Sequence record: KJ190157
Origin: Escherichia phage vB_EcoS_FFH_1
Reading direction: 5' to 3' (one strand)
Length of the DNA: 64,000 bases
Part shown: in pieces, positions 19,807 to 36,301 of the stretch
Numbering within the stretch: position 1 is the stretch's first letter
How the letters are laid out: the number at the start of each line of letters is the position of its first letter
Program-made: the position numbers and the translations under genes
The notes under the pieces: model-generated
The model's database searches: none
What the model saw: the letters and a program-made list of their open reading frames with translations, nothing else
What the model was told of the DNA's origin: nothing

Positions 19807-20223
19807 TTAATCTACTGCATGTATAAATCTTTTCCTAACTAGATACATAGTTATTGGGTAAATTGAGTACATAAGTATCGGGGAGAAAAGGGTGAAATAC
19901 GCTGTAACTCCCCCAGCTAACATCAAAGGTATTAATGCTAGAGTAAGGGCCATAAGAATCATGCCGAATGAAACAGCCAAAGCTATGGATATAGGATTCT
20001 CTAGTTCCATCCATAACCAACAATATTTCGTATCTCTATGGCAATTGCATTTACAAACGCCGAATGAACCCATAATTATATACTCTAGTCCGTGAATAAC
20101 CTTTATTAATAAGCTATTTCGGGTAGTTAATGCAAGGATAGTAAAGACTATCATTAAAACGAATACTACTAGACTTATTTTCCAGATACCTAGCAGCATC
20201 ATAGTGAATAGTTCTGCAAACAT
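19807..20223 (-). CDS. membrane protein
   Basis: 138 aa, 4 predicted TM helices. Confidence 0.5.
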   Translation of the reverse strand: MFAELFTMMLLGIWKISLVVFVLMIVFTILALTTRNSLLIKVIHGLEYIIMGSFGVCKCNCHRDTKYCWLWMELENPISIALAVSFGMILMALTLALIPLMLAGGVTAYFTLFSPILMYSIYPITMYLVRKRFIHAVD

Positions 20224-20300: not shown

Positions 20301-20714
20301 TTAAACTAGTTCGACATGACCGCCATCATAGGTACCACGTTTTATTTCATCGTGATAGTCTCCCGAAGCATTCCAATCAGCACCAAAACGAAGCTTAATG
20401 CCTAGTTCTTTACCAGCTTGTTCAAAAGCCTTTTTAACTGCCCAAAATGCTTCTAAGTCATTCCAATCAATTTTGCCATTAATGTATGGAGCAAAATCAA
20501 GAGCATCCCCAGTAATATGCTTACTTTTACTAGGATCTTTTAAAAATGAAGTACCATTAGCAATATTCTGGGCACTTTGTGCTACTGTACGAATACCCTG
20601 TACGATCGTAAAATCATATGGAGATAATTCTAAAGCTCTACGAGCTACTTTTTGTAGCTCTGGCTTGACGGTAGCTAATTGTTTTTCGCTATTTTTACCA
20701 AATTTAAAACTCAT
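20301..20714 (-). CDS. lys: endolysin, L-alanyl-D-glutamate peptidase (EndoT5-type)
   Basis: 137 aa; sequence matches my recollection of T5 endolysin almost residue for residue; metallopeptidase His/Asp residues (HITGDALDF, GGHVE). Confidence 0.85.
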   Translation of the reverse strand: MSFKFGKNSEKQLATVKPELQKVARRALELSPYDFTIVQGIRTVAQSAQNIANGTSFLKDPSKSKHITGDALDFAPYINGKIDWNDLEAFWAVKKAFEQAGKELGIKLRFGADWNASGDYHDEIKRGTYDGGHVELV

Positions 20715-21367
20715 ATTGATCTACCTAAAGATCTCTGTTGTGGGGAACAGAGCTTTGTTAAATACTCGTTAAATTTCTCAGAATCGGCTGCATCTACAGG
20801 ATTATCTTTCCAAGCAATACCAATATATCCAGCATAGATATTGTTTAGATTGAAATACGGACAAGTGTATATGTAATTAAAAGTAACGTTCTTAAACGCA
20901 GGTATATTTAACCCCATGTATTTATTTACTTTTACACTTAAATCCGATGCGTAGTTAAAGCCGTCTAAGTGACGTCTATATAGCTCAGACGTCTTATTTA
21001 CCGCTTTATCGGCCAAGTCAGCCCTATCTAATTGCGCATTGCTTTCCCATGCAATAATGTTAGAATAATCATTAATGGCATCGGGTTTATACTTGACTAC
21101 AAAAACAGCATCCGCACCCGTTTGGGAAAAAAGCACCATGCTCTTTTCTCTAGCTACGTTAGGAAAATTACTTATCCTTTGAGTTTGAACATCCTGTAGA
21201 ACCGCAGACGTGGAGAAAGTCTTTAAGAATGACATCACCTCACTAGTATTACTAACAAATAAGAAAATAATGACAGCAACTAAGATAGTTAGCAGACGTT
21301 TAAGAAGCGATGCTGGATCTTTCGCTTCTTGGAGCAGTACCGTTAATAATTGTAAGAACTTTTCCAA
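20711..21367 (-). CDS. hol: holin
   Basis: 218 aa, N-terminal TM, immediately upstream of endolysin with start/stop overlap. Confidence 0.6.
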   Translation of the reverse strand: MEKFLQLLTVLLQEAKDPASLLKRLLTILVAVIIFLFVSNTSEVMSFLKTFSTSAVLQDVQTQRISNFPNVAREKSMVLFSQTGADAVFVVKYKPDAINDYSNIIAWESNAQLDRADLADKAVNKTSELYRRHLDGFNYASDLSVKVNKYMGLNIPAFKNVTFNYIYTCPYFNLNNIYAGYIGIAWKDNPVDAADSEKFNEYLTKLCSPQQRSLGRSI

Positions 21368-21490
21368 TTGTAACCTCCTCTAACCAGTACCATTATACTA
21401 ATTTTGGAGGAAAATTACAATGTGTTTTTAAAGATCACTTCTGGAGCATAAAATTTTGTCGTTGTCAAGAAGAATTTTAGATAAAAGAAA

Positions 21491-21515
21491 AGCCAGGGTC
21501 GTTAAACCCTGGCTT
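21491..21515 (-). terminator. rho-independent terminator after ClpP-like gene
   Basis: AGCCAGGG...CCCTGGCT. Confidence 0.65.
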
Positions 21516-22132: not shown

Positions 22133-22885
22133 TTATCCAACTAGTGGTTCTAGCTCTAAGTCACAGAAGTTATAAACTTCTAGTTTAAGGTTATTGATAC
22201 CATCGAATTTATTAACTAATTCGTGAGTAATATATTTTGCAGGAATACCACTTTCAGATGGATGATCTGATTTAATAGTGAACTTCTGCTCAGCGGGTAC
22301 TACATTTACTATCAAAGAATCCATATCTAAATGGTTTGTTTCTCTGAGTAACTCTCCTTCATTGGGGAATCTAACATCTGTTATTATGGCGACATCTGGG
22401 TCGTCTTTAGCGATGGATTGCTCCAGAATTATGAGCCAAATGCGTTCATGCACCAGCTGCCTTCCTAGCTCTGTCCCTACGAGCTGTAACATTTTTCTCG
22501 GAGAAATAAATAAACTATAAAGTCCGTCTTCTTTATTCTCTGAGATAAGTTGTTGAGGATTAAGATATTTTTCCTCAAAAATAGGCCAAACGTACGAGAA
22601 GTCTTCAAACTTATCGATACCGTACTTAAACCACACATCTCTGGCTCGCTCCAGTTGAGATTGTGTGACCGTAAACCATTGGTCAATCTCTTTTCCCCTG
22701 CGCTCTCCTAAAAACTCTGGAGTTACACCGAGGATTACGGATGCAAGTTCATAAACGGGCTTAGCAAAACTATAACGACGGGATAAACACGTTGGATACG
22801 TGTCATTACACCAATCGATAATTAATTTTGCAACGGTATCTTTTCCCGAACCAGCTTCACCATGTAAACCGACTAATACTGACAT
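22133..22885 (-). CDS. dnk: deoxynucleoside monophosphate kinase
   Basis: 250 aa; P-loop GEAGSGKDT. Confidence 0.7.
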   Translation of the reverse strand: MSVLVGLHGEAGSGKDTVAKLIIDWCNDTYPTCLSRRYSFAKPVYELASVILGVTPEFLGERRGKEIDQWFTVTQSQLERARDVWFKYGIDKFEDFSYVWPIFEEKYLNPQQLISENKEDGLYSLFISPRKMLQLVGTELGRQLVHERIWLIILEQSIAKDDPDVAIITDVRFPNEGELLRETNHLDMDSLIVNVVPAEQKFTIKSDHPSESGIPAKYITHELVNKFDGINNLKLEVYNFCDLELEPLVG

Positions 22886-23238
22886 TAATCTTTCCTATTG
22901 TTAATTGGTGGATAGTAAACTAAGCAACGTTTTTCTTGTAAATCTTGGCGATAGAAGCAAACCATACCAGTCAGTCGTGAAATGTAAGAGTAAACTGCTT
23001 CCTCACATTTTGCTTTTGCATTCCAATCTTTATATGGTACAACAACTACTACGCCATCTTCTCCATTTGTAGCTAATTTCTTTTCAAACTTAAAGTCAAA
23101 GCTACAAGGTTGAAGTTCTTTAGGCCAGTCTACATGAGCTTGCTTTAACTCATGAGATGGCTCTGGTTTTATTTCTTCTGCACAGCCTGTGATTGTGATT
23201 GTGGCTGCGAGCAGTACTCCAAGTTTCCAGTTAAACAC
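22885..23238 (-). CDS. lipoprotein (o-spanin candidate)
   Basis: 117 aa; signal peptide with lipobox ITGC; starts inside the 3' end of the upstream TM/coiled-coil gene. Confidence 0.45.
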   Translation of the reverse strand: MFNWKLGVLLAATITITGCAEEIKPEPSHELKQAHVDWPKELQPCSFDFKFEKKLATNGEDGVVVVVPYKDWNAKAKCEEAVYSYISRLTGMVCFYRQDLQEKRCLVYYPPINNRKD

Positions 23239-23618
23239 GCTAATCTTTCCTCGAACTCTTTATTCTGCTTTTTAGCAATTAATGTAACCAATCCAGGCTT
23301 TGCAGCGATAACATCTTGGCGACTAAGAGCTTTATCTAGCTGCTTAATCTTTTTGTCTAGATCTGCTTGAGATACATTATTCAGTGTAAAATATTGATTC
23401 ATTCGAGTCTCCCGAAGTTCGCTCTCAGCTTTCACCTTATTAAGGGAAGTCTCTAGAGAAGAAATCTTTTTAGTAGCTACCGCAAGATCTCCCGCTAAAG
23501 TCTCCACTTTATCTACTAAGTGATAAGTACCGAATCCGATGCCTATCGCTAGACCTGCTCCCAGGATATACCACTTACCGTGCCATATTCCTGAAAGAAG
23601 TTTTTGTATCAAATCCAT
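23169..23618 (-). CDS. TM plus coiled-coil protein (i-spanin candidate)
   Basis: 149 aa; N-terminal TM, long coiled coil. Confidence 0.45.
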   Translation of the reverse strand: MDLIQKLLSGIWHGKWYILGAGLAIGIGFGTYHLVDKVETLAGDLAVATKKISSLETSLNKVKAESELRETRMNQYFTLNNVSQADLDKKIKQLDKALSRQDVIAAKPGLVTLIAKKQNKEFEERLACLTGNLEYCSQPQSQSQAVQKK

Positions 23619-24273
23619 GTGCTGCTAACCTGTCTTTATCTGATACTTTAATCATATCAGGCTCACCAGTTCCTAGTACACCGAAGATATACTGTTCGAG
23701 AACTTGGTGTAAACGGTATAAGTTACTTTCAATTTCCTGCCACGGAATACCTGACTGATGGAAACGAATGTTAGTCTGAATCACGAAGTTACGAACATCA
23801 TCGTTATCGTTCTTTTTAATACCTTTCACATATGCAATCGGTACACGCAGTTCGGATAAGATACGTTCTGCTTTAGGTTTTGCTTCAGCGAGCAGATCAC
23901 GCATTGTTTCACGAACATCTCCACGACTCTTATCCATTAAGTAAGAGCGAGCATGTAATCCCATCTCTTCCATTTTATCAAACATAGTGTCGAGATTAAA
24001 CGTTTTGAAGCTAAATGCTGGATGCCAGCAGTACAGCTCGTGTAACCAGTAAACTTCACCTGCAACAAACAGTGGGTTTACAAAGTATTCGAAGTCGCCA
24101 CGGAAAGATAGTGAACCATCCCGAAATACTTGGCGAGTATGCACAATGTTCTTTTCTGCATCATCAGTTACCTTAACCAGTAGCTCTTCAGTTTTACGCT
24201 CCCAAACACGATCGGGGTCGAACAAACTGTTCTGCAAATCATACACATCGGCGAACTTAGAAATAATCCTCAT
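23575..24273 (-). CDS. hypothetical protein
   Basis: 232 aa; canonical promoter at 24305-24333. Confidence 0.55.
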   Translation of the reverse strand: MRIISKFADVYDLQNSLFDPDRVWERKTEELLVKVTDDAEKNIVHTRQVFRDGSLSFRGDFEYFVNPLFVAGEVYWLHELYCWHPAFSFKTFNLDTMFDKMEEMGLHARSYLMDKSRGDVRETMRDLLAEAKPKAERILSELRVPIAYVKGIKKNDNDDVRNFVIQTNIRFHQSGIPWQEIESNLYRLHQVLEQYIFGVLGTGEPDMIKVSDKDRLAAHGFDTKTSFRNMAR

Positions 24274-24333: not shown

Positions 24334-24427
24334 CTAAAATTTTATTATAAAAATAGCCCAGTCGCAAAAGTGCGTGCTGGGCTTTGTCATTATTTGCTTT
24401 TGCTAGTAAGTTGACTTAGTGTCAATC

Positions 24428-24808
24428 TTATGTAATATTAGTTTCTCTAGCTTTGCGTAGTACCCCTGCATTTCTCCATAACTTAATATCGTCTACTGTT
24501 TCTTTATAAGGAGCTATGGTAAAACCTAGTGGGCCAGCACTAAATAACCCTAAGAATCCTATTGCACGCATATAGAACAAGCATTCTTCGCCTGTCATTT
24601 CTTCAACTGCTTTTCTTTGTTTTTCGTTTTCAAACTCGTGCTCCTTGTTATCTATACGAAGGTGTTTAATGAACCATTCAGCAGAATATTCATCTAAGTG
24701 TCTAAGTATAGCTACTGCATACCCAGCGCCAATTAAAAACCAAGTGGTAACAAGAATTAGTATTATAGTCATATAATCTCCAGTTAAGGTCAGCGACCAA
24801 CTCACCAC
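24428..24808 (-). CDS. membrane protein
   Basis: 126 aa. Confidence 0.5.
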   Translation of the reverse strand: MVSWSLTLTGDYMTIILILVTTWFLIGAGYAVAILRHLDEYSAEWFIKHLRIDNKEHEFENEKQRKAVEEMTGEECLFYMRAIGFLGLFSAGPLGFTIAPYKETVDDIKLWRNAGVLRKARETNIT

Positions 24809-24882: not shown

Positions 24883-25167
24883 TTAGGTATTCTGCATTTC
24901 AGCTTTAAATTTTTTCATATTACGAGTCTTTCTATAAAAGAAAAACACAGATGTTGGGCCTAGAAGAATATCCACAATAAATATCATAGATCTAGCACAT
25001 CTGAGTAATGTTTTATCATCAAGAGGAGGCAGATCTAACGGTCGAGTTTTATGTATAACGTATAATATTACATCTTTATTCTTAGAAATATACAGATCAT
25101 CAACCAAGCTGTAAATAGCTACTATAGATCCAATGACGAACCAAAGAGCAAATGGAGAGATAATCAT
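24883..25167 (-). CDS. membrane protein
   Basis: 94 aa. Confidence 0.45.
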   Translation of the reverse strand: MIISPFALWFVIGSIVAIYSLVDDLYISKNKDVILYVIHKTRPLDLPPLDDKTLLRCARSMIFIVDILLGPTSVFFFYRKTRNMKKFKAEMQNT

Positions 25168-27983: not shown

Positions 27984-28059
27984 TGGTAGTTAGTAGTGGA
28001 TTTGAACCACTGTAGTCGCTCCGTATGAAGGAGGTGCATAACCACTCTGCCAACTAACT
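27984..28059 (-). tRNA. tRNA-Met(CAU) (or Ile2/fMet)
   Basis: hand-traced cloverleaf; T-arm AGTGG-ATTTGAA-CCACT; anticodon loop on plus strand GTATGAA; CCA encoded. Confidence 0.65.
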
Positions 28060-28155
28060 GTTATGTTTTACTAGACTAAGTAAGTATTCTTTATACTCTT
28101 TAGACCAATTAGCTTTTTTAAACTTTCCTGGACGCATAGTCTTAATTCCTAGATT

Positions 28156-28232
28156 TGGTACTCCGGGAGGGATTTAAACCCCCGATCTCTCGGTTATCAG
28201 CCGAGTGCTTTAGATCGCTAAGCTACCGAAGT
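28156..28232 (-). tRNA. tRNA-Ile(GAU)
   Basis: perfect anticodon stem CTCGG/CCGAG, loop TTATCAG. Confidence 0.7.
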
Positions 28233-28247
28233 ATTAGAATATTTACA

Positions 28248-28538
28248 TCATACACTGTCTAAGTAAGAAGTATAATGGAATTTAGCTTCTCCAGTCTTAT
28301 CTACTTCTACCTCAGTTCGTGGTACTTGACGAACCACACCATGAATCATCTTATAGCGAATGCCTTTAGCTGGTTCATGATCTTTTGGGAATACTTGTTT
28401 AACCGTTACTACTTTATATCCTTCACGCGGTGTTAACACTACTACTTGATCACCTTCTTTGATTTTCCAAGAAGATGGAAATTCATAGGTATATCTTTGA
28501 CCACCAGTTTGGAATACTACAGAAAGATAACGTTTCAT
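28248..28538 (-). CDS. hypothetical protein
   Basis: 96 aa; promoter at 28569-28597. Confidence 0.5.
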   Translation of the reverse strand: MKRYLSVVFQTGGQRYTYEFPSSWKIKEGDQVVVLTPREGYKVVTVKQVFPKDHEPAKGIRYKMIHGVVRQVPRTEVEVDKTGEAKFHYTSYLDSV

Positions 28539-28568
28539 TTGGTTTCCCTCTCATTAATTTATATAGAT

Positions 28569-28597
28569 ATTATAACAAGAAATAAGAGAGAAGGCAA
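28569..28597 (-). promoter_or_regulatory. T5-type early sigma70 promoter
   Basis: TTGCCT, 17 bp, TATAAT. Confidence 0.65.
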
Positions 28598-28602
28598 ATG
28601 AA

Positions 28603-28677
28603 TTTTTAAATTTGGTGCTCCCACCAGGAATCGAACCCGGTTCAGATGCTTACAAGGCAACTGCATCGCCAGCAATG
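28603..28677 (-). tRNA. tRNA-Thr(UGU)
   Basis: T-loop AATCGAA, D-stem GCAT/ATGC, loop TTACAAG; one anticodon-stem mismatch. Confidence 0.55.
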
Positions 28678-28854
28678 CTTTAGGAGCGATGATCCCGTTA
28701 TTTCAACGGGATTTCTTTTTCAATAACAGGAGACTTATCAGTCATAACTGTCATTGCCATTTGTTGTAGAAATTCAAAGGTGAAGGCTACACGTTCTTCA
28801 CCAATCTCTACTTCTACACGTTTCTTTTGTTTATCGATCTTGACTTTTAGGTTG

Positions 28855-29076
28855 TCAGCCATCTTCGGGTTCTCGTTGCTGCGCTACTTCTAGCCAGTCT
28901 GGTAGAAGAAACTTTGTACGAAATTCTTCGTAAGTTTCTTTGGGATAAAAGCTAAAACCTCCTTTCTCATCATTCAGGATAACAGAACCGTCAGTTTGTT
29001 CGTATGCTCGGTATGTTTCCCCAATAACAATAACTCGTTTATCAGTACTTTTATTACGAAACTCAAAAACGTGCAT
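28855..29076 (-). CDS. hypothetical protein
   Basis: 73 aa between tRNA genes. Confidence 0.4.
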   Translation of the reverse strand: MHVFEFRNKSTDKRVIVIGETYRAYEQTDGSVILNDEKGGFSFYPKETYEEFRTKFLLPDWLEVAQQREPEDG

Positions 29077-29092
29077 AATGTTCCCTTAAAGT

Positions 29093-29168
29093 TGGAGCGG
29101 CTAGAGGGAATCGAACCCTACTCAGCGAGGCTTGGAAGGCCTGCGACACAACCCGTGTGCTTAACCGC
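29093..29168 (-). tRNA. tRNA-Gly(UCC)
   Basis: T-loop AATCGAA; anticodon loop TTGGAAG. Confidence 0.6.
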
Positions 29169-29176
29169 TTATTGTT

Positions 29177-29254
29177 TGGCAGGGGATATTGGATTTGAAC
29201 CAATGATCTCGACTTCAAAGGCCGAAGCTTTAGACCAGGCTAAGCTAATCCCCA
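29177..29254 (-). tRNA. tRNA-Gln(UUG)
   Basis: perfect T-arm ATTGG-ATTTGAA-CCAAT; loop TTCAAAG. Confidence 0.6.
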
Positions 29255-29260
29255 ACTGTT

Positions 29261-29336
29261 TGGCAGAAGGTAGTGGGTTCGAACCACTGATCGGGGTTTC
29301 AGAGACCCCAGCCTTAACCGACTTGGCTAACCTTCT
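29261..29336 (-). tRNA. tRNA-Gln(CUG)
   Basis: perfect T-arm and anticodon stem GGGGT/ACCCC; loop TTCAGAG. Confidence 0.7.
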
Positions 29337-29520
29337 TCTTAATACTTTTTGGATCTTCTAAACGTTTGCCTTCATGATCTACTCGAATAACTCCGCACCC
29401 TTCGCAAACCACAACTACACCATAACCTTCTTTGACCTCAGCTTCTGTAATCAAACCAGAAAGATCACCAGTATCTCTGCCCCACATATCAATGGAGCAT
29501 TGTTTGCAGAAATCAGCCAT
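29314..29520 (-). CDS. small zinc-ribbon-like protein
   Basis: 68 aa; CKQC...CEGC. Confidence 0.45.
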   Translation of the reverse strand: MADFCKQCSIDMWGRDTGDLSGLITEAEVKEGYGVVVVCEGCGVIRVDHEGKRLEDPKSIKKKVSQVG

Positions 29521-29545
29521 ATTTTATTTCCTATTTAAGTTAATT

Positions 29546-29622
29546 TGGGGTGGCTAGTGGAATTCGAATCCACATAGGCCTGATTCACAATCAGGATCAT
29601 TAACCAATTATGATATAGCCAC
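29546..29622 (-). tRNA. tRNA-His(GUG)
   Basis: perfect T-arm and anticodon stem CCTGA/TCAGG; loop TTCACAA. Confidence 0.7.
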
Positions 29623-29862
29623 AATTGAAAACTCGCAGGGTTAGCGAAACCTTCCTCAATTAGCATGTTCTAGAATACTAATCAAGTTATCTCCTATTGC
29701 ACGCAGCTCAAGACGAGTACGAATTTTCAATTGTGGTGGCTCTCAGAAACTCTTCTACTCTAGCCTTAGCAGCTTACTCCCGAACGCATGTCGGGGAAGT
29801 CTTACTAAGCGCATCAAATAGCACCGTTACACTTTGAGCCATTGATATATCAAGAAGTAGAA

Positions 29863-29993
29863 GGACTTGAACCTTCACGAGATAGACCATTTATCTCAGC
29901 CGCTTTATGAGGTATATTGCAGAGAGTGGATGTTCCCTATAAACCTTTTAGGCAGCCCCGTCTACCGATTCCGGCATACTTCAAGATTTGGAG
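29863..29993 (-). ncRNA. tRNA-like stable RNA candidate (~130 nt)
   Basis: perfect T-arm GAAGG-ACTTGAA-CCTTC at 29870-29886 and 6-bp acceptor pairing 29863-29869 with 29987-29993, but 100-nt interior with no canonical anticodon arm. Confidence 0.35.
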
Positions 29994-29998
29994 GTAGG

Positions 29999-30093
29999 TA
30001 AGGGGATCGAACCCTTACACCGTATCACTACGATCAACCGATTTCAAGTCGGAGTCCAGCGCCAGCCATTGGATTGACCTACCGTATAAATTG
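29999..30093 (-). tRNA. tRNA-Ser(UGA), class II
   Basis: 95 nt with long variable arm; T-arm AAGGG-GATCGAA-CCCTT; loop TTTCAAG. Confidence 0.6.
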
Positions 30094-30105
30094 TTTGGCG
30101 GAAGA

Positions 30106-30196
30106 GGAGAGATTTGAACTCTCAAGCCGTTTTACCAGTCAGCCACTTTCCAAGCGGTTTTCGTCGCCAATTCGATTTGCTCTTCCAATAATAAGA
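30106..30196 (-). tRNA. class II tRNA, probably Ser(GGA)
   Basis: 91 nt; perfect T-arm and 7-bp acceptor; anticodon arm only resolved with mismatches (loop TTTCCAA). Confidence 0.4.
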
Positions 30197-30233
30197 TGAT
30201 GCCTCTATCACACCAGGCAGTTACGCCTCGCTG

Positions 30234-30300
30234 GGATTCGAACCCATTAAAACAGCTCAACCGAGATAGTAGATTTAATTTACTCTGACCATCAAATTTG
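30234..30300 (-). ncRNA. tRNA-like fragment (T-arm only)
   Basis: T-loop GGGATTCGAACCC present but no acceptor partner or anticodon arm found. Confidence 0.25.
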
Positions 30301-30308
30301 GTGCGTGA

Positions 30309-30385
30309 CAAGGGATTCGAACCCTCAAAACCCGACTTCTAAGGACGGTATGTATGCCAATTCCATCAATCACGCGTATTTGGTG
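30309..30385 (-). tRNA. tRNA with UAG anticodon (Leu by anticodon), class I shape
   Basis: 77 nt, short variable region; loop TTCTAAG; discriminator A. Confidence 0.45.
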
Positions 30386-30390
30386 GAGGA

Positions 30391-30469
30391 TAACGAATTC
30401 GAATCGTTCTGATGTCCTCGGTGCAAGCGAGGTGTCCACCCCTAGCAGACCCATCCCCCAAATTCTTTA
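30391..30469 (-). tRNA. tRNA-Ala(UGC)
   Basis: perfect anticodon stem CCTCG/CGAGG, loop GTGCAAG; G3-U70 wobble in acceptor stem. Confidence 0.7.
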
Positions 30470-30571
30470 GTTTACTAAGGCTATTAGCTCGGCGTAACTA
30501 CAGCACCTTCGCTTCGAGCTAATACCTTAGTGAACTATGATGAGGATTTCTCCCCATCAATTTATATAAAT

Positions 30572-30600
30572 ATTATAACAAGAAATTAAGCATTAAGCAA
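30572..30600 (-). promoter_or_regulatory. T5-type promoter driving tRNA block 30469-29999
   Basis: TTGCTT, 17 bp, TATAAT; tRNAs immediately downstream. Confidence 0.7.
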
Positions 30601-30952
30601 GTACATTTTTGCAGATTTCTTGTAGTTCCTTTACATCACGAACGTAAAGGTAGTCTGAACTTCCAGAGTGCATACTTTGCATAAACACACCCTCATCTGG
30701 CGCAGTATCCTTCAAAGTAATTCCTAACCAAAAAGCGGCAAAACGAGGTGTTACCTCACCTTGACTTGCCTTGAATACATCGGCTTCTGTGATCTCCTGA
30801 CCAGTAGAAAGTCCCATATACGGTACGTTCAGATCGATATCTTTGTAGAATTCAGCTAGGTCTTGTTCGAAGTCCCAACCTTTAGAGATAGCGAACTCTA
30901 TTGTTACATGACCGAAATAACCTTGAATCTTGTTTGATAGTTGCATTTGCAA
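30593..30952 (-). CDS. hypothetical protein
   Basis: 119 aa. Confidence 0.5.
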   Translation of the reverse strand: MQMQLSNKIQGYFGHVTIEFAISKGWDFEQDLAEFYKDIDLNVPYMGLSTGQEITEADVFKASQGEVTPRFAAFWLGITLKDTAPDEGVFMQSMHSGSSDYLYVRDVKELQEICKNVLA

Positions 30953-30961
30953 TTCCTTATT

Positions 30962-31035
30962 TTGAGTTAATTGGTACTCGGTGATAGAATCGAACTATCA
31001 CAACCGCCGTGTAAAGACGGGGTTCTCCCATTAAA
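30962..31035 (-). tRNA. tRNA-Val(UAC)
   Basis: perfect T-arm GATAG-AATCGAA-CTATC; loop GTGTAAA. Confidence 0.6.
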
Positions 31036-31178
31036 CTAACCGAGCAAAAGATTTGCTACTAAAAATGCTTCGAACAGAAATTCACAAAATCCCGCTAAAA
31101 ACATACCTATTGTAAAATCGGCAGAAAATACATAGGAATCTTTTATTTTCTGCTTCATTAAGTAAAACCAGATAGTCA

Positions 31179-31496
31179 TTAAAATCTCTCCATTCTAAAG
31201 CCAATGAAGTAAGGTGCATTACACGGAACATGCTTAAGATCTTTAAGAGTAATTTTACGTCCTAAGCGTCGTTCCATACAAGTGAAACATAGAACAATAT
31301 CTTTGGGCTGCCCTTTTCTTATCTGATCCCAGACCCAATCTTCAACCATACACATTTCATGGTATTGTTCACAGTCTCGACAATAATGACACTGATGTTC
31401 TGGTACTTTTTGATTTTTAATACACAGTTCAGTAAAGCGTTTTCCGGCTCTGCCAGACATTTCTGATATTGTTTCTAGAACTTTGTTAATATTCAT
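31179..31496 (-). CDS. Cys-rich hypothetical protein
   Basis: 105 aa; HQCHYCRDCEQYHEMC...CFTCMERR. Confidence 0.5.
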   Translation of the reverse strand: MNINKVLETISEMSGRAGKRFTELCIKNQKVPEHQCHYCRDCEQYHEMCMVEDWVWDQIRKGQPKDIVLCFTCMERRLGRKITLKDLKHVPCNAPYFIGFRMERF

Positions 31497-31513
31497 AACA
31501 AATTCCTTTAAAT

Positions 31514-31592
31514 TGGTAGATCGCCTGGGACTCGAACCCAGAACCTTCCGATTAAAAGTCGGATGCTACTAAACCTATTGAGCTAGCGACCT
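31514..31592 (-). tRNA. tRNA-Lys(UUU)
   Basis: perfect T-arm and anticodon stem TCCGA/TCGGA; loop TTAAAAG. Confidence 0.7.
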
Positions 31593-31781
31593 ATTAGTAG
31601 CCATTATATACTTCTTTAATAGAATGGACTTTTAAGTAAGGATGATTAATCCCAAACTCCGCCATTACTTCTTTTTCATCTTTTCCATAATGTGCAAGTA
31701 AGGATCTTGAGGTATTATTACCTAAACGTTTGTCATTTACTACTAATCGAAATACTTTCATTTCGAAATCCTCTATTAAAA

Positions 31782-31859
31782 TGGAAGCGGGTGCAGGAAT
31801 CGAACCTACCTCTTTCTAGCTTATGAGACTAGCGATCTCTACCAGAGATCTAACCCGCA
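31782..31859 (-). tRNA. tRNA-Met(CAU) (or Ile2)
   Basis: loop TTATGAG; mismatch at acceptor pair 1-72. Confidence 0.55.
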
Positions 31860-31865
31860 ATTGTT

Positions 31866-31941
31866 TGGTCAGTGCGGCAGGACTCGAACCTGCGACCCGA
31901 AGCATCCAAGGCTCCCACGCTACCAACTGCGCTACGCACTG
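31866..31941 (-). tRNA. tRNA-Pro(UGG)
   Basis: perfect T-arm GCAGG-ACTCGAA-CCTGC and acceptor; loop ATCCAAG. Confidence 0.65.
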
Positions 31942-31950
31942 TTAATTCTT

Positions 31951-32148
31951 TTATTGTGGGGGGATATTAATAATTCGTCCATCTACACAATAAACGGTAC
32001 TAGGGATTGTACTGTATATGTAGAAATTCTTTATATTACTCTCTCCGCCACAGAAATTTTTAGCAAATTCATACTCTTTATTAATGGTTGAGTCAAGTTT
32101 AAAACAACCAGTAAGTAGGAATACAGATAGCAATAAAACTTTCTTCAT
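31951..32148 (-). CDS. small lipoprotein
   Basis: 65 aa; lipobox LLTGC; promoter at 32181-32209. Confidence 0.5.
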   Translation of the reverse strand: MKKVLLLSVFLLTGCFKLDSTINKEYEFAKNFCGGESNIKNFYIYSTIPSTVYCVDGRIINIPPQ

Positions 32149-32180
32149 TTTGCTTTCCTTCTCTTCACTTTATAAAATAT

Positions 32181-32209
32181 ATTATACAGAGAATTAAGTA
32201 AAATAGCAA
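32181..32209 (-). promoter_or_regulatory. T5-type early sigma70 promoter
   Basis: TTGCTA, 17 bp, TATAAT. Confidence 0.7.
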
Positions 32210-32358
32210 ATGAATTTTTAATAAATTTACTTATTGTGTAGGCCACCTGGAGGCTATGAACCCCACGGCTGACAAAGAAGTTTGCGAGACTTCTCTTAAA
32301 AGCCAGAATAGACCCGCCGATCTATCGGAACCTACATAATAAGTAAACTTTATAGTGT

Positions 32359-32479
32359 CATTCTAGACAGGACTCGAACCTGTTATCACTTGTGCGGACT
32401 TACGAGAACCATTCTTTCACTCGAATCGAACGAGCTTCTGCCCTAGCCAAGCTGGTTTCCCCATCAACCACGCTAGAAT
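32359..32479 (-). ncRNA. tRNA-like stable RNA candidate (~120 nt)
   Basis: perfect T-arm ACAGG-ACTCGAA-CCTGT at 32367-32383 and perfect 7-bp acceptor pairing 32360-32366 with 32473-32479; long interior. Confidence 0.35.
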
Positions 32480-32601
32480 GTTTGATTGTTTTCAGTGCAA
32501 GAGTCCGAGTCTTGGACACGACCGCTTCGCAAGTACATAGGCAGCTTATCATGAGTCAGCACTTCCGAATTGCTAGCCCCGTGTTCTGCACTGAAATTTT
32601 A

Positions 32602-32949
32602 TTAGTTTAACCGTAAAGTATTATCTACTTCACCATTAATTGTTCGGCATTCCTCTGGGATTGCCGGTGTAGCCTTGTATTCCCACCACTCAGCACCATC
32701 ATATTCCCCACGTTCTAGCCAAGTTCCATCGGCAAACCATACATTACCATAAAGTAATTGTCCACCGTATCCAGAATCATATTCAAAGTCTAGGTTATTA
32801 AGAAACCCCTCAATGTCTTCTTCTGTATAATCTAAAGGTAATACCCAGACTTTTTTGTCCCCATAATACCCAAATTCTATTTTAATACACTTAACTTTAG
32901 AATTGGTATTTTTTAAGGCGAGTAACAGCTCTTCTTTAGCATTACGCAT
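32602..32949 (-). CDS. hypothetical protein
   Basis: 115 aa. Confidence 0.5.
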   Translation of the reverse strand: MRNAKEELLLALKNTNSKVKCIKIEFGYYGDKKVWVLPLDYTEEDIEGFLNNLDFEYDSGYGGQLLYGNVWFADGTWLERGEYDGAEWWEYKATPAIPEECRTINGEVDNTLRLN

Positions 32950-32974
32950 AGTATATTCTCATACTGAATTAAGT

Positions 32975-33051
32975 TGGCGCGACCGATGGGATTTGAACCC
33001 ACATTCTCTCCCGTGACAGGGGAGTACCATTACCAAGCCAGCCCCGGTCGC
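32975..33051 (-). tRNA. tRNA-Asp(GUC)
   Basis: perfect anticodon stem CTCCC/GGGAG, loop GTGACAG; perfect acceptor. Confidence 0.75.
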
Positions 33052-33060
33052 ATAATTCAT

Positions 33061-33246
33061 TTACTCAGCTTTGAGTTTTTCAATAGCTGCATTAAGTTCT
33101 TTAAGAAACTCTTTTCGTACATTAAGACGATTGAGACTTACTAGTATATCGTGTTTAAGTTCTTCGATGTATTTCTTTTCAACTTCAATATTGTTGATAG
33201 TGCTATCACGATGAACTTCTAGCTGCGCAATTACATTCTTGGACAT
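33061..33246 (-). CDS. hypothetical coiled-coil protein
   Basis: 61 aa. Confidence 0.4.
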   Translation of the reverse strand: MSKNVIAQLEVHRDSTINNIEVEKKYIEELKHDILVSLNRLNVRKEFLKELNAAIEKLKAE

Positions 33247-33348
33247 GCTTGTTTCCTCAGTTATTAATGAAAATGGTATCTGTGGCTGAATTCGATGTCA
33301 GCAATGATAGCTGGTTGGCTACCGGTTTACTTAACTCTACACAGAATT

Positions 33349-33431
33349 TGGCGGGCCGTGTAGGATTCGAACCTACGTTGTCTTTCGACATGGATTAACA
33401 GTCCACCGCCAAACCGCTTGGCTAACGACCC
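33349..33431 (-). tRNA. tRNA-Asn(GUU) with extended variable region
   Basis: perfect T-arm GTAGG-ATTCGAA-CCTAC; D-stem GCCA/TGGC; loop TTAACAG; 13-nt variable region. Confidence 0.55.
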
Positions 33432-33583
33432 TAAATTTATATTGCTGACTAGGATTTTCACCTAGACGGAGTTAGCACCGTAGCGTGTAGCGGCATACCT
33501 CTCCAAACCGTGCCTCATCTTTCAATTACGGAGACAGTGTTCCTACGCGTGCCTGAATTGATTCAACAATTCTTCCAGCAAAT

Positions 33584-33659
33584 TGGACGACCGCATGAGA
33601 TTTGAACTCACATAAAAAGGATTTGCAATCCTTCGCCTAAGCCCTTCAGCCAACGGTCG
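33584..33659 (-). tRNA. tRNA-Cys(GCA)
   Basis: perfect anticodon stem AAGGA/TCCTT, loop TTTGCAA. Confidence 0.7.
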
Positions 33660-33707
33660 GTTTATCTTGTTCTGTCATGTTGCTTCTCCAGTTCAATTTA
33701 TGTAATT

Positions 33708-33736
33708 ATTATACAGAACTTTTGGAAACTAAGCAA
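33708..33736 (-). promoter_or_regulatory. T5-type promoter driving tRNA block 33659-32975
   Basis: TTGCTT, 17 bp, TATAAT. Confidence 0.7.
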
Positions 33737-34016
33737 CTACATTTTTTAAGAATTTGATGCCTTTCTTTTTCTTCTTATATTTCCACGTTAATGGATTCTG
33801 TCGATTATGAACGCTTGAGATCTTTGTCTCGTCAAAGTTCTTCAATATCATGTAATCACAGGATAATTGTTCTAGTAGAATGTGATCACCGTCAAAAGCG
33901 TATACATAAGGCTGTTGACTAACACGATAATGATAGACTTTGTTAATTCTACGTTTCAGCGACTTATCAGCGCAGTAAATAAAGAAGTTTTCAGGATGCA
34001 TCAGCAGCTCCTTCAA
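33729..34016 (-). CDS. hypothetical protein
   Basis: 95 aa. Confidence 0.45.
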   Translation of the reverse strand: MKELLMHPENFFIYCADKSLKRRINKVYHYRVSQQPYVYAFDGDHILLEQLSCDYMILKNFDETKISSVHNRQNPLTWKYKKKKKGIKFLKNVVA

Positions 34017-34099
34017 TTTGGTGCACCCTGTTCGTATCGAACGAACCTCTCAAGCTCTTCAGGCAAGCGCTAATCCATCTCAGCTAAAGGTGCAAATTT

Positions 34100-34176
34100 T
34101 GGCAAACCTACTAGGACTCGAACCTAGACCGTACGGTTTTGGAGACCGACATGCTGTCCAGTAACACTCTAGGAAT
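34100..34176 (-). tRNA. tRNA-Trp(CCA)
   Basis: perfect T-arm CTAGG-ACTCGAA-CCTAG; loop TTTGGAG; two acceptor mismatches. Confidence 0.55.
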
Positions 34177-34184
34177 GCAGAAAT

Positions 34185-34261
34185 TGGCGTCCTGTGCGGG
34201 GATCGAACCCGCAAATCCTACCTTGAAAGGGTAGTGACTTTACCAGTTTGTCTAACAGGAC
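34185..34261 (-). tRNA. tRNA-Glu(UUC)
   Basis: perfect T-arm, anticodon stem CTACC/GGTAG and acceptor; loop TTGAAAG. Confidence 0.75.
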
Positions 34262-34268
34262 TTAAATT

Positions 34269-34359
34269 TGGTGTTGGATGATGGAGTCGAACCACCCGAG
34301 ACCCTTCCGAGTCGGCAGATTTACAGTCTGCTTCGCTACCTCTACGATACTAATCCAAC
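34269..34359 (-). tRNA. tRNA-Tyr(GUA), class II
   Basis: 91 nt with long variable arm; perfect anticodon stem GCAGA/TCTGC, loop TTTACAG. Confidence 0.7.
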
Positions 34360-34489
34360 ATATTTAGAAGTATTCAAAAATTCTCATTTAAACACTTTTA
34401 AATATGTTTTCAAATTAGGTAACTATTATACCAAGTTTTAAGGCACTGAGCAAGTCAAATTTTAAAGAACTTGCTCAGTGCTATATTAG

Positions 34490-34765
34490 TTAGTCGAACT
34501 TAGGAGTGACAGTTAAGGAGAACGGAAGTTCGAAAACTTCTTCACCCTCATTACTAACGGTAACTACACGACCTTTAAGTTCAGACATTAAAATATCAAT
34601 ATCAGCTTTTGCATCTGGAGCCATGCCAGCTTCAATACATTTAGCTTTAACCTCCGGTAGAAGATCTACGTTATAGAGATAGAGCCACTCAATCTCACCT
34701 TCCCAGTCTTCCCAGGATTTGCAGATTGCACTTTCAATACCAGTTGCTGCAACACGATTTTGCAT
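34490..34765 (-). CDS. hypothetical protein
   Basis: 91 aa; promoter 34785-34814. Confidence 0.5.
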   Translation of the reverse strand: MQNRVAATGIESAICKSWEDWEGEIEWLYLYNVDLLPEVKAKCIEAGMAPDAKADIDILMSELKGRVVTVSNEGEEVFELPFSLTVTPKFD

Positions 34766-34784
34766 TCGTTAACTCCTTCATCAA

Positions 34785-34814
34785 TTTATACAACTATTAT
34801 ATCAGAAATTTAAA
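34785..34814 (-). promoter_or_regulatory. T5-type early sigma70 promoter
   Basis: TTGCCT, 18 bp, TATAAT. Confidence 0.6.
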
Positions 34815-34855
34815 GCAAAAGGCAAGTACATTTTTAAAAATTCTGTTTGGAGGAG

Positions 34856-35062
34856 CTAAACTCCAGATTCTTCAGCTAAGTCTAGGCTAATAAGAGTTAT
34901 AGCCATAATTGCTGCACCGTGTTCTTTTTCTCCGGTGTTTTTAGCAGAGTCTATAATAGTCTTAATCTGTTCGTAATAGCCTTTTACTTCTTGTTCAATA
35001 CCTGCCTCGGCTATCATGCCTTTAGTCATGATTCGTTGCATAGTAATTTCACGGTTAGCCAT
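34856..35062 (-). CDS. hypothetical protein
   Basis: 68 aa. Confidence 0.4.
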   Translation of the reverse strand: MANREITMQRIMTKGMIAEAGIEQEVKGYYEQIKTIIDSAKNTGEKEHGAAIMAITLISLDLAEESGV

Positions 35063-35238
35063 GATGTTTCTCCAGCTTCATTTTTAATAGTTTACAAATG
35101 AAATCAACGTCTTCATCTGTACCTAGATCTCTATCTTCAAGAGTTGCCTTGAAGTTTTTAGTCAATTCCATGAGGATAACTTCTCTAGAACGACGTGTTG
35201 GCGGAGGTGGATGTCTATACATCTTATTTCCTTAGTTT

Positions 35239-35315
35239 GGTAGGGGTGGTGGGATTCGAACCCACAAAACCTGAATTTTAAGTCCAGTACCTATGCCAAT
35301 TCGATTACACCCCCG
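35239..35315 (-). tRNA. tRNA with UAA anticodon (Leu by anticodon), class I shape
   Basis: 77 nt; perfect T-arm GTGGG-ATTCGAA-CCCAC; loop TTTTAAG; discriminator A. Confidence 0.5.
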
Positions 35316-35321
35316 TGTAGT

Positions 35322-35510
35322 TTAGTCAATTACTTTTGAGGCTTCAAGGTAGTCGATATAGTGTATGTTTTCTACCGTAATCATATAATCTGCCACTTTA
35401 TCCATAGCTTGGGCTTCAGAGGTAGCTCTGGCTAACCTATATCCTTTTTTATATTCATCCGGGTATTCTCTATCTTGGATAAACACAACATAAACTATAT
35501 ATAGATCCAT
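35322..35510 (-). CDS. hypothetical protein
   Basis: 62 aa. Confidence 0.4.
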   Translation of the reverse strand: MDLYIVYVVFIQDREYPDEYKKGYRLARATSEAQAMDKVADYMITVENIHYIDYLEASKVID

Positions 35511-35529
35511 TTGTGACCTCTATTTAATT

Positions 35530-35607
35530 TGGTGGCTCCCCGAGGATTCGAACCTACGTACCTTCCGGTTATGAGCCGGGTGCTCATACCATATGAGCTT
35601 GAGAACC
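35530..35607 (-). tRNA. tRNA-Met(CAU), possibly initiator
   Basis: loop TTATGAG; three consecutive G-C pairs at base of anticodon stem; weak T-stem. Confidence 0.5.
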
Positions 35608-35613
35608 AGAATT

Positions 35614-35702
35614 TGGCGGAAGAAGCGGGAATCGAACCCACAAGGCTATATTTCAAACCGACAGATTAGCAATCTGCTGCAATACCGTTATGCTATTCTT
35701 CC
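35614..35702 (-). tRNA. tRNA-Ser(GCU), class II
   Basis: 89 nt; perfect acceptor; anticodon stem GCAGA/TCTGC; loop TTAGCAA. Confidence 0.6.
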
Positions 35703-35717
35703 GAATTTATAAGATAT

Positions 35718-35746
35718 ATTATATTAGAAATTTAGCTTCATAGCAA
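35718..35746 (-). promoter_or_regulatory. T5-type promoter driving tRNA block 35702-35239
   Basis: TTGCTA, 17 bp, TATAAT. Confidence 0.7.
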
Positions 35747-36242: not shown

Positions 36243-36272
36243 ATTTGGTTCCTCTTTCAAATTTATAGATAT

Positions 36273-36301
36273 ATTATACAGAGAATTTAGCATTCAAGCA
36301 A
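36273..36301 (-). promoter_or_regulatory. T5-type early sigma70 promoter
   Basis: TTGCTT, 17 bp, TATAAT. Confidence 0.7.

What the first reader, a model, noticed from the sequence alone, without database searches (positions are those of the whole stretch)
22885..23618. Possible overlapped spanin pair located 1.5 kb from the holin-endolysin genes
A TM plus coiled-coil protein (23169-23618) overlaps by 70 nt a downstream lipoprotein gene with lipobox ITGC (22885-23238), the hallmark arrangement of i-spanin/o-spanin pairs. They are separated from holin and endolysin (20301-21367) by ClpP-like and dNMP kinase genes.
Basis: inference. Interest (0 to 1): 0.4.

Follow-up and report, generated by a model that had tools for sequence, protein, structure and literature searches.

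The report
Known T5-type overlapped spanin gene pair

Summary
A 149-aa ORF (23169-23618, minus strand) has an N-terminal membrane helix and a heptad-repeat helix. It overlaps by 70 nt a 117-aa ORF (22885-23238, minus strand) with signal peptide and lipobox ITG|C. The window is a Tequintavirus (T5-like phage), 97.9% identical to published genomes. Both proteins hit the PHROG 'Rz-like spanin' families (E 1.6e-36 and 4.2e-30), and RefSeq annotates their orthologues as spanins. They belong to the 'T5 family' of overlapped two-component spanins described by Kongari et al. 2018, which states the 70-bp overlap. The order i-spanin, o-spanin, dNMP kinase, Clp-like protease, terminator, promoter, holin, endolysin is kept in the five other genera or lineages of Demerecviridae examined. 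The pair is a distant homologue of T4 PseT.3/PseT.2, which was shown to replace lambda Rz/Rz1. The two cysteines essential in PseT.2 are conserved here (Cys94, Cys105). The overlap varies less than its flanks, as expected for two coding frames. I found no experiment on the T5 pair itself. Verdict: interpretation supported, already known, low interest. Two minor extras are a Demerecviridae-specific Cys-x7-Cys tail on the i-spanin, and a one-base TGA/TGY toggle that may link the T4 (separated) and T5 (overlapped) gene layouts.

The parts
23169..23618 (-). i-spanin gene (149 aa, ATG start); overlaps the upstream 232-aa ORF by 44 nt and the o-spanin gene by 70 nt
   Evidence: ORF. phrog_739 'Rz-like spanin' E 1.6e-36. 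95% identical to the EPS7 i-spanin listed by Kongari 2018. Orthologue annotated as Rz-like spanin in RefSeq NC_047822.
23514..23573 (-). N-terminal transmembrane segment of the i-spanin (about residues 16-35, Gly-rich)
   Evidence: Hydropathy maximum at residues 17-35. Helical in the AF2 model. The Sugarland orthologue is annotated 'N-terminal TMD'.
23394..23525 (-). Heptad-repeat (coiled-coil) region of the i-spanin periplasmic domain (about residues 32-75)
   Evidence: Heptad score 0.85, reached by 0 of 2000 shuffles. Kongari supplementary table lists a coiled coil at 33-75 for the 149-aa EPS7 protein.
23211..23237 (-). C-terminal C-L-T-G-N-x3-C motif of the i-spanin (Cys128, Cys136); it lies inside the overlap and is encoded by the same bases as the o-spanin MFNWKLGVLL
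   Evidence: Conserved in all 7 Demerecviridae sequences and absent from the T4-type i-spanins (alignment A2; junction DNA).
22885..23238 (-). o-spanin gene (117 aa, GTG start); its stop shares one base with the dNMP kinase start
   Evidence: ORF. phrog_812 'Rz-like spanin' E 4.2e-30. tblastn finds 558 phage records. 89.7% identical to T5p043.
23182..23238 (-). Lipoprotein signal peptide (residues 1-18) plus the lipidated Cys19 codon (23182-23184); lipobox ITGC, Ala at +2
   Evidence: G18 and C19 are invariant across 9 sequences, T4 included (A1). LipoP SPII cleavage is noted for the Sugarland orthologue.
22924..22959 (-). C-x-Y-R-x-D-L-x-E-x-R-C motif (Cys94...Cys105); the equivalent of T4 PseT.2 Cys87/Cys98
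   Evidence: C94, Y96, E102 and C105 are invariant in alignment A1. In T4 both Cys are essential for lysis (Kongari 2018).
23169..23238 (-). 70-nt dual-coding overlap
   Evidence: Nucleotide diversity 0.033 versus 0.079 and 0.094 in the flanks. The changes are silent in the i-spanin frame.
24339..24367 (-). Promoter-like site upstream of the 232-aa ORF; likely start of the transcription unit that contains the spanin genes
   Evidence: Consensus scan. It matches the position of the 'putative promoter' annotated in T5 st0 upstream of T5p046. Inferred, not shown.
21490..21515 (-). Intrinsic-terminator-like hairpin (11 bp, 6 GC, T-run) just after the Clp-like gene; it separates the spanin-containing unit from the holin-endolysin operon
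   Evidence: A terminator is annotated at the same place in Sugarland.
21392..21420 (-). Promoter-like site (TTGTAA-17-TATAAT) upstream of the holin
   Evidence: A promoter is annotated at the equivalent place in T5 st0.
20711..21367 (-). Class III (T-type) holin, functional partner in lysis
   Evidence: PF11031 E 4.8e-113; phrog_860.
20301..20714 (-). Endolysin (M15-type peptidase, T5 Lys-like), functional partner in lysis
   Evidence: phrog_465 E 2.2e-54. PF13539 E 1.1e-4, just below the Pfam cut-off.

Best explanation
The two genes encode the two-component spanin of a T5-like phage.

The 149-aa protein inserts into the inner membrane through its N-terminal helix, N-in and C-out. It extends a largely helical periplasmic domain that is partly coiled coil.

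The 117-aa protein is exported, lipidated on Cys19 and, with Ala rather than Asp at +2, sorted by Lol to the outer membrane. Its mature domain of about 98 aa has predicted strands and a helix, and carries a C-terminal Cys pair (94/105).

The C-terminal parts of the two proteins bind, so complexes span the periplasm through the peptidoglycan mesh. The complexes are made from an early-region transcription unit (232-aa ORF, i-spanin, o-spanin, dNMP kinase, Clp-like protease). They stay inert until the separately transcribed T-type holin releases the endolysin. Once the wall is cut, the complexes can move and oligomerise, stabilised by disulfides, and fuse the inner and outer membranes, which completes lysis.

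Shown here: gene anatomy, family membership, synteny, conservation of the diagnostic residues, and dual-frame constraint. Inferred from lambda and T4 work: complex formation, disulfide chemistry, membrane fusion and timing.
For: - ORFs and overlap.
- PHROG spanin families: phrog_739 at 1.6e-36 and phrog_812 at 4.2e-30.
- Orthologues annotated i-/o-spanin or Rz-like spanin in many records.
- Kongari et al. 2018 list T5, EPS7, SPC35 and others as the 'T5 family' with overlapped architecture and a 70-bp overlap. Their tables give a 149/147-aa i-spanin with a coiled coil at 33-75 and a 117-aa o-spanin.
- The TM segment, lipobox and neighbouring genes are kept in Sugarlandvirus, Novosibvirus, Priunavirus, Hongcheonvirus and an unclassified Markadamsvirinae phage, at 19-44% protein identity.
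- Homology to T4 PseT.2 and PseT.3: BLASTP 1e-7 and 5e-6. A T4-like phage carries the same PHROGs. The T4 pair complements lambda RzamRz1am and needs both o-spanin Cys; those Cys are invariant here.
- Heptad periodicity: 0 of 2000 shuffles. Helical AF2 model.
- The overlap is less variable than its flanks, and its substitutions are silent in the i-spanin frame.
- A terminator and a promoter lie between the Clp-like gene and the holin.
Against: - No experiment on the T5-family pair was found in the searchable literature. Function therefore rests on homology and anatomy.
- No Pfam family matches either protein, and no solved structure exists.
- The TM hydropathy is modest (1.42).
- The single-sequence structure models have low confidence: pLDDT 66 and 54.
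- The o-spanin start is GTG here, a minority allele, which may lower expression.
- The genes sit in a nucleotide-metabolism/early unit rather than next to the holin and endolysin. The same is true of T4.
Confidence: 0.9

Rival explanations
1. The lipoprotein is a lytic-conversion or superinfection-exclusion lipoprotein that blocks a receptor, like T5 Llp or lambdoid Cor. The upstream membrane protein is unrelated.
For: It is a small phage lipoprotein made from the early region. T5-like phages are known to encode a receptor-blocking lipoprotein, Llp (mentioned in PMC4342426).
Against: Llp is described as a different gene. This lipoprotein is homologous to the T4 o-spanin PseT.2 and keeps its essential Cys pair. 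It is always paired in the same phase with the TM/coiled-coil gene in all 7 Demerecviridae and 2 T4-type genomes examined. It occurs in 558 phage records whose names cover phages of many hosts, and so of varied receptor specificity.
Confidence: 0.03
2. The pair descends from spanins but has another or redundant role in T5-like phages, for example an early envelope function. Outer-membrane disruption would then be done by something else, such as the 65-aa lipoprotein at 31951-32148 that PHROGs also labels 'Rz-like spanin'.
For: The pair is co-transcribed with dNMP kinase and a Clp-like protease rather than with the holin and endolysin. A second lipoprotein with a spanin label exists in the window. 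There are no direct experiments on T5 spanins.
Against: T4's validated spanins are also far from t and e. The 65-aa lipoprotein has no TM partner and no C-terminal TMD, and it sits among tRNA genes. It is found in only 81 records, against 558. In a Seunavirus its upstream neighbour has no TMD. The spanin-specific residues of the 149/117-aa pair are under strong constraint.
Confidence: 0.05
3. The overlapping ORFs are a chance arrangement, and one of them is not a gene.
For: Short ORFs and lipobox-like strings do arise by chance: 0-2 hits per shuffled window.
Against: Both ORFs are intact in 24 close relatives and in the other genera or lineages examined, with the signal peptide and TM kept. 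Profile E-values are 1e-30 to 1e-36. The overlap shows dual-frame constraint.
Confidence: 0.005

Closest known systems
T5 spanin family (T5p044/T5p043; EPS7, SPC35, Stitch, DT57C and others) of Kongari et al. 2018, BMC Bioinformatics 19:326
   Same: Orthologous. The i-spanin is 95% identical to EPS7 and about 86-91% to T5. The o-spanin is 89.7% identical to T5. Lengths (149/147 and 117 aa), the 70-nt overlap, the lipobox, the Cys pattern and the genomic position upstream of dnk all match.
   Different: Only allelic details differ. The o-spanin start is GTG instead of ATG. There is a G41E change in the o-spanin. The cytoplasmic N-terminal tail of the i-spanin differs, and the HNH endonuclease gene found upstream in T5 st0 is absent.
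T4 PseT.3 / PseT.2 two-component spanin (experimentally validated)
   Same: The PHROG families are the same (739/812), and pairwise BLASTP gives 5e-6 and 1e-7. Shared motifs are the i-spanin AKPGLV motif, the o-spanin WP motif, and C-x-Y-R-x-[DE]-L-x-E-x-x-C with the two essential Cys. Both o-spanins have predicted strand and helix content, though the model for this one is low-confidence. Both phages use a T-type holin, and in both the spanin genes lie away from the holin and endolysin.
   Different: T4 has the separated layout (4-nt ATGA junction) and this pair the overlapped layout (70 nt). The T4 i-spanin has no Cys, whereas this one carries a C-terminal Cys-x7-Cys tail. This o-spanin has an extra Cys pair (45/78). 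Identity is only about 24-28%.
Lambda Rz / Rz1
   Same: The functional design is the same: a type II inner-membrane coiled-coil protein plus an outer-membrane lipoprotein, periplasmic Cys, and genes that share DNA.
   Different: There is no detectable sequence similarity; neither protein matched any Pfam family above threshold. Rz1 is fully embedded in Rz, and its 40-aa mature form is Pro-rich and unstructured (background knowledge). Here the layout is overlapped, and the mature o-spanin is 98 aa, 7% Pro, with predicted strands and a helix.
T1 gp11 unimolecular spanin
   Same: It is an outer-membrane lipoprotein that serves the last step of lysis.
   Different: A u-spanin has a C-terminal TMD in the same polypeptide and needs no partner. 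Neither lipoprotein in this window has a C-terminal TMD.

Membership tests
Two-component spanin (functional class, Young lab definition) | i-spanin: a single N-terminal TMD, type II topology, soluble periplasmic domain | tested here: met
   Hydrophobic segment at residues 17-35 and nothing hydrophobic afterwards. Helix in the AF2 model. A TMD is annotated in orthologues. Topology itself is inferred.
Two-component spanin (functional class, Young lab definition) | Helical or coiled-coil periplasmic domain in the i-spanin | tested here: met
   Heptad periodicity over residues 32-75, reached by 0 of 2000 shuffles. Published coiled-coil call at 33-75 for the 95%-identical EPS7 protein. AF2 helices 2-80, 84-101 and 108-129.
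Two-component spanin (functional class, Young lab definition) | o-spanin: SPII signal with lipobox, and no Asp at +2 (outer-membrane sorting) | tested here: met
   MFNWK-LGVLLAATITI-TG|C, with Ala at +2. G18 and C19 are invariant. Actual lipidation and sorting were not tested.
Two-component spanin (functional class, Young lab definition) | o-spanin gene embedded in, overlapping, or immediately after the i-spanin gene | tested here: met
   70-nt overlap, phase +2. The phase is the same in all 9 genomes compared.
Two-component spanin (functional class, Young lab definition) | At least one periplasmic Cys available for intermolecular disulfide | tested here: met
   Two Cys in the i-spanin (128, 136) and four in the mature o-spanin (45, 78, 94, 105). 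Disulfide formation was not tested.
Two-component spanin (functional class, Young lab definition) | The subunits interact and are needed for outer-membrane disruption (spherical cells when absent) | not testable with these tools
   This needs genetics and biochemistry. No T5-family experiment was found.
T5 spanin family (Kongari 2018) / PHROG 739 + 812 | Significant sequence similarity of both subunits to family members | tested here: met
   phrog_739 at 1.6e-36 and phrog_812 at 4.2e-30. 95% identity to EPS7 and 89.7% to T5.
T5 spanin family (Kongari 2018) / PHROG 739 + 812 | Overlapped architecture with about 70 shared bases, upstream of dnk | tested here: met
T4 PseT.3/PseT.2 family | Conserved o-spanin Cys pair (T4 C87/C98), essential for lysis | tested here: met
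   C94 and C105 are invariant, with the same 11-residue spacing; essentiality is.
T4 PseT.3/PseT.2 family | Separated gene architecture; i-spanin without Cys | tested here: not met
   The layout is overlapped by 70 nt, and the i-spanin has two Cys. It is therefore a related but distinct family, as in Kongari's classification.
Lambda Rz/Rz1 family | Sequence match to the Rz / Rz1 families; embedded architecture; Pro-rich o-spanin | tested here: not met
   Neither protein matched any Pfam family above threshold. The layout is overlapped, not embedded. The mature o-spanin is 7% Pro.
Unimolecular spanin (T1 gp11 type) | Lipoprotein signal plus a C-terminal TMD in one chain | tested here: not met
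   The 117-aa protein has no hydrophobic C-terminus.

The most novel reading that the evidence does not exclude
The T5-type overlapped spanin layout and the T4-type separated layout may be two states of one ancestral gene pair, linked by a single-base toggle.

In all nine genomes compared, the o-spanin ATG lies in the same phase on an i-spanin triplet 'xxA TGx'. In the T4-type phages that triplet is the TGA stop (the ATGA junction). In Demerecviridae it is TGT or TGC. There it reads on as the first Cys of a conserved C-x-x-G-N-x3-C tail, encoded by the same bases as the o-spanin signal peptide.

The read-through would have given a Cys-free i-spanin two cysteines. That could add lambda-like homotypic i-spanin disulfides to the T4-like o-spanin disulfide scheme.
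Probability: 0.4. Interest if true: 0.25.

Novelty: already known. Interest (0 to 1): 0.1.

Why it matters
For annotation, it confirms that this window carries a complete lysis set (T-type holin, M15 endolysin, two-component spanin), with the spanin genes in a different transcription unit from the holin and endolysin. Nothing new about phage lysis follows from that; the family, its overlap and its position are published and routinely annotated.

Three smaller points could interest spanin specialists:
- the clear T4-T5 spanin homology, with conservation of the essential o-spanin Cys pair;
- the Demerecviridae-specific Cys-x7-Cys tail of the i-spanin, encoded inside the o-spanin signal-peptide DNA;
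- a small orphan lipoprotein elsewhere in the window that is probably mislabelled as a spanin by PHROG-based pipelines.

Tried and rejected
- Pfam gave no credible hit for either protein. PDB sequence searches gave nothing below E 0.17.
- Single-sequence AlphaFold2 models had low confidence (pLDDT 66 and 54). I used them only for secondary structure and did no fold search. Alignment-based prediction would have needed the costly protein database search, which the verdict did not justify.
- Summer et al. 2007 (PMID 17900620), the original Rz/Rz1-equivalents survey, is not held. I cannot cite what it says about T5.
- Searches for experiments on T5 spanins returned only Kongari 2018.
- I considered the 65-aa lipoprotein at 31951-32148 (phrog_6073, 'Rz-like spanin') as an alternative or additional o-spanin or u-spanin. 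I rejected it. It has no TM partner and no C-terminal TMD, it lies in the tRNA cluster, and it occurs in only 81 records. In Seunavirus SPLA5a the adjacent upstream gene has no TMD.
- I considered that the i-spanin Cys pair might pair heterotypically with o-spanin Cys45/78. Providencia phage PSTCR5 lacks both Cys45 and Cys78 yet keeps the i-spanin Cys pair. That favours Cys45-Cys78 being an independent intramolecular pair.
- The alignment of the i-spanin C-terminus with T4 is ambiguous by about 4 residues. The stop-to-Cys toggle therefore remains an inference.
Full report
**What is there.** The minus strand carries a 149-aa ORF (23169-23618, ATG) and a 117-aa ORF (22885-23238, GTG). They share 70 nt, with the second gene in phase +2.

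The first protein has a Gly-rich hydrophobic segment at residues 17-35 and no other hydrophobic stretch. It has two Cys near its C-terminus (128, 136). Residues 32-75 form a single-register heptad repeat with V38, L41, L45, I52, L55, L59 and V62 at a/d positions; 0 of 2000 shuffles reach its score. A single-sequence AF2 model is almost all helix, at pLDDT 66.

The second protein begins MFNWK-LGVLLAATITI-TG|C. That is a canonical lipoprotein signal with Cys19, followed by Ala at +2. The mature part has four more Cys (45, 78, 94, 105) and 7% Pro. A pattern scan over every possible start codon in the 64-kb window found only three such signals, against 0-2 in shuffled sequence.

**Identity of the window.** The 1.1 kb around the pair is 97-98% identical to many Tequintavirus genomes, such as vB_EcoD-Elw and phiLLS, and it matches 445 phage records. 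The neighbours are a dNMP kinase, a Clp-like protease, a T-type holin (PF11031, 4.8e-113) and an M15-type endolysin.

**Family assignment.**
- The two proteins hit phrog_739 and phrog_812, both labelled 'Rz-like spanin', at 1.6e-36 and 4.2e-30.
- RefSeq annotates the orthologues in phiLLS as two Rz-like spanins at the same relative coordinates. Many other records call them i-spanin and o-spanin.
- Kongari et al. 2018 (PMC6139136) define a 'T5 family' of i- and o-spanins: T5, EPS7, Stitch, SPC35, AKFV33, FFH1, DT57C, My1, plus Shivani and phiR201. They state that 'the T5 spanins overlap by 70 bp'.
- Their supplementary tables list the EPS7 i-spanin sequence, which is 95% identical to this one. 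They give a coiled coil at 33-75, a 117-aa o-spanin, and a 70-nt overlap for EPS7 and SPC35.
- In T5 st0 the genes are T5p044 and T5p043, deposited as hypothetical proteins.

The finding is therefore a rediscovery of a published, routinely annotated feature.

**Independent support from distant relatives.** I fetched the locus from five other Demerecviridae genera or lineages: Sugarland, Stubb, PSTCR5, DU_PP_V and KKP_3711. At 19-44% identity all keep three things:
- a TM-plus-helix protein;
- an overlapping lipoprotein gene;
- downstream dnk, Clp-like protease, and then the holin-endolysin pair. In PSTCR5 no holin is annotated and I did not check that stretch.

The overlap length varies (34-88 nt), but the phase is always the same. 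Two o-spanin starts are mis-annotated or unannotated in the public records (Stubb, PSTCR5). The correct ORFs have MSNW(R/K)xGLL signals and VGC lipoboxes.

Among 24 close relatives, nucleotide diversity in the overlap is 0.033, against 0.079 and 0.094 in the single-coding flanks. Of the seven variable sites in the overlap, five are silent in the i-spanin frame (one of them in its stop codon) and two alter i-spanin residues 147 and 148. All seven change the o-spanin, three of them conservatively within its signal peptide. One caveat: 16 of the 70 overlap positions were part of the exact pattern used to fetch those loci. Excluding them, 6 of 54 sites vary, which is still less than half the flank rate.

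**Link to an experimentally validated system.** tblastn with the o-spanin also reached a T4-like phage (Ursula). There the hit is the gene pair next to alc and pseT, annotated with the same PHROGs.

Direct BLASTP against T4 PseT.2 and PseT.3 gives 1e-7 and 5e-6. In the nine-sequence alignment of o-spanins the invariant columns are the lipobox G-C, a WP proline, and C94, Y96, E102 and C105. The shared motif reads M-x-C-[FY]-Y-R-x-[DE]-L-x-E-x-[RK]-C.

Kongari et al. showed that pseT.3/pseT.2 complement a lambda RzamRz1am lysogen. They also showed that both PseT.2 cysteines (87 and 98) are essential. Those two correspond to C94 and C105 here, with identical spacing.

The low-confidence AF2 model of the o-spanin has strands at 51-53, 63-69, 91-97 and 102-108 and a helix at 72-86. 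This broadly resembles the beta-alpha-beta organisation described for PseT.2, and it places C94 and C105 on neighbouring strands. T5 and T4 also share the class III holin.

**How the T5 type differs from the T4 type.**
- All Demerecviridae i-spanins end in C-[LVA]-[TSV]-G-[ND]-x3-C, a tail that T4-type i-spanins lack.
- Their o-spanins carry an extra Cys pair (45/78). Both are lost together in PSTCR5 and absent from the T4-type proteins, which suggests an intramolecular pair.
- The i-spanin tail is encoded by the same bases as the conserved o-spanin N-terminus, M-x-N-W-K-x-G-x-L-L.
- In every genome the o-spanin ATG lies on an i-frame triplet 'xxA TGx'. That triplet is TGA (stop) in T4 and Ursula and TGT/TGC (Cys) in Demerecviridae. 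A one-base change could therefore switch between the separated and overlapped layouts. This is an inference, and the protein alignment near the junction is ambiguous by about four residues.

**Expression context.** A strong terminator-like hairpin (21515-21490) follows the Clp-like gene. A TTGTAA-17-TATAAT site (21420-21392) precedes the holin, and another promoter-like site (24367-24339) precedes the 232-aa ORF upstream of the i-spanin. These coincide with promoters and terminators annotated in T5 st0 and Sugarland.

The spanin genes thus appear to be transcribed with the 232-aa ORF, dnk and the Clp-like gene, separately from the holin-endolysin operon. T4's spanin genes are likewise remote from t and e. 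By the lambda model, spanin complexes made early are harmless until the endolysin removes the peptidoglycan. That step is established background, not something tested here.

**Mechanism proposed.**
1. The i-spanin is anchored in the inner membrane, N-in and C-out.
2. The o-spanin is lipidated and sorted to the outer membrane.
3. The two bind through their C-terminal parts, so complexes span the periplasm.
4. Disulfides stabilise the complexes: the conserved C94/C105 pair, and possibly the i-spanin Cys pair.
5. After holin triggering and wall degradation, the complexes fuse the two membranes.

Confidence that this is the function is 0.9. The remaining doubt comes only from the lack of any direct experiment on the T5 family.

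**Rivals.**
- A receptor-blocking lipoprotein of the Llp/Cor type. This is contradicted by the T4 o-spanin homology, the obligate pairing and the distribution across 558 phage records of many hosts.
- A descended-but-repurposed pair, with another protein doing the outer-membrane step. The only other candidate is the 65-aa lipoprotein at 31951-32148, and it lacks a partner, lacks a C-terminal TMD and occurs in only 81 records.
- Chance ORFs. This is excluded by conservation.

**Verdict.** Novelty: already known. Interest: 0.1.

Noticed in passing
window 31951-32148 (-): A 65-aa orphan lipoprotein (MKKVLLLSVFLLTG|C...) sits among the tRNA genes. It hits phrog_6073, labelled 'Rz-like spanin' (1.2e-28), and is auto-annotated as such in several genomes. 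It has no TM partner upstream and no C-terminal TMD, and it occurs in only 81 phage records (a subset of T5-like phages, plus Seunavirus and Cronobacter phages). In Seunavirus SPLA5a the upstream neighbour has no TMD either. The spanin label is probably wrong and the function is unknown; it may be an exclusion-type lipoprotein.
   Followed up: partly
window 23236-23238 (-): The o-spanin start codon is GTG here and in 5 of 23 close relatives (phiLLS, Elw, NBSal005, fp01-like). It is ATG in the rest and in all the distant relatives examined. The A-to-G change is silent in the i-spanin frame (GCA to GCG, Ala127).
   Followed up: yes
window 23575-24273 (-) and 23575-23618: A 232-aa ORF (phrog_4243, unknown function, no Pfam hit) overlaps the i-spanin start by 44 nt and is conserved upstream of the spanins in Sugarland and KKP_3711. 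Public records label it inconsistently: 'putative terminase' in some, 'DNA polymerase III subunit epsilon' in others. T5 st0 has an HNH endonuclease gene inserted between this ORF and the i-spanin. That gene is absent here, and the i-spanin cytoplasmic tail differs accordingly. This tail region is the most variable part of the locus (pi 0.13).
   Followed up: partly
window 27984-39311 (-): A cluster of 22 tRNA genes, all on the minus strand, interspersed with small ORFs. This is typical of T5-like phages.
   Followed up: no
window 19807-20223 (-): A 138-aa protein that looks multi-pass hydrophobic by eye (no TM prediction was run) is encoded 78 nt downstream of the endolysin. It belongs to phrog_5944 (unknown function), and an ORF of the same length (417 nt) is annotated at the same position in phiLLS, Elw, T5 and Sugarland. 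Given its position it could be a lysis accessory or regulator; this was not examined.
   Followed up: no
window 24428-24808 (-) and 24883-25167 (-): Two small proteins with hydrophobic N-terminal segments lie upstream of the spanin transcription unit. They belong to phrog_5468 and phrog_5265, both of unknown function.
   Followed up: no
L005 (Proteus phage Stubb) 3501-3812; L006 (Providencia phage PSTCR5) 3001-3327: These public annotations miss or truncate the o-spanin. In Stubb the annotated start lies 8 codons too far downstream, and its note says the lipobox was not found. In PSTCR5 the gene is not annotated at all. The full ORFs have MSNW(R/K)xGLL...VGC signals.
   Followed up: yes
L003 (T5 st0) 3535-3536, equivalent to the dnk gene at window 22133-22885: The T5 record marks a 'major DNA single-chain interruption' (a genomic nick site) inside dnk, just downstream of the spanin pair. 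I did not check whether the nick motif is present in this window.
   Followed up: no
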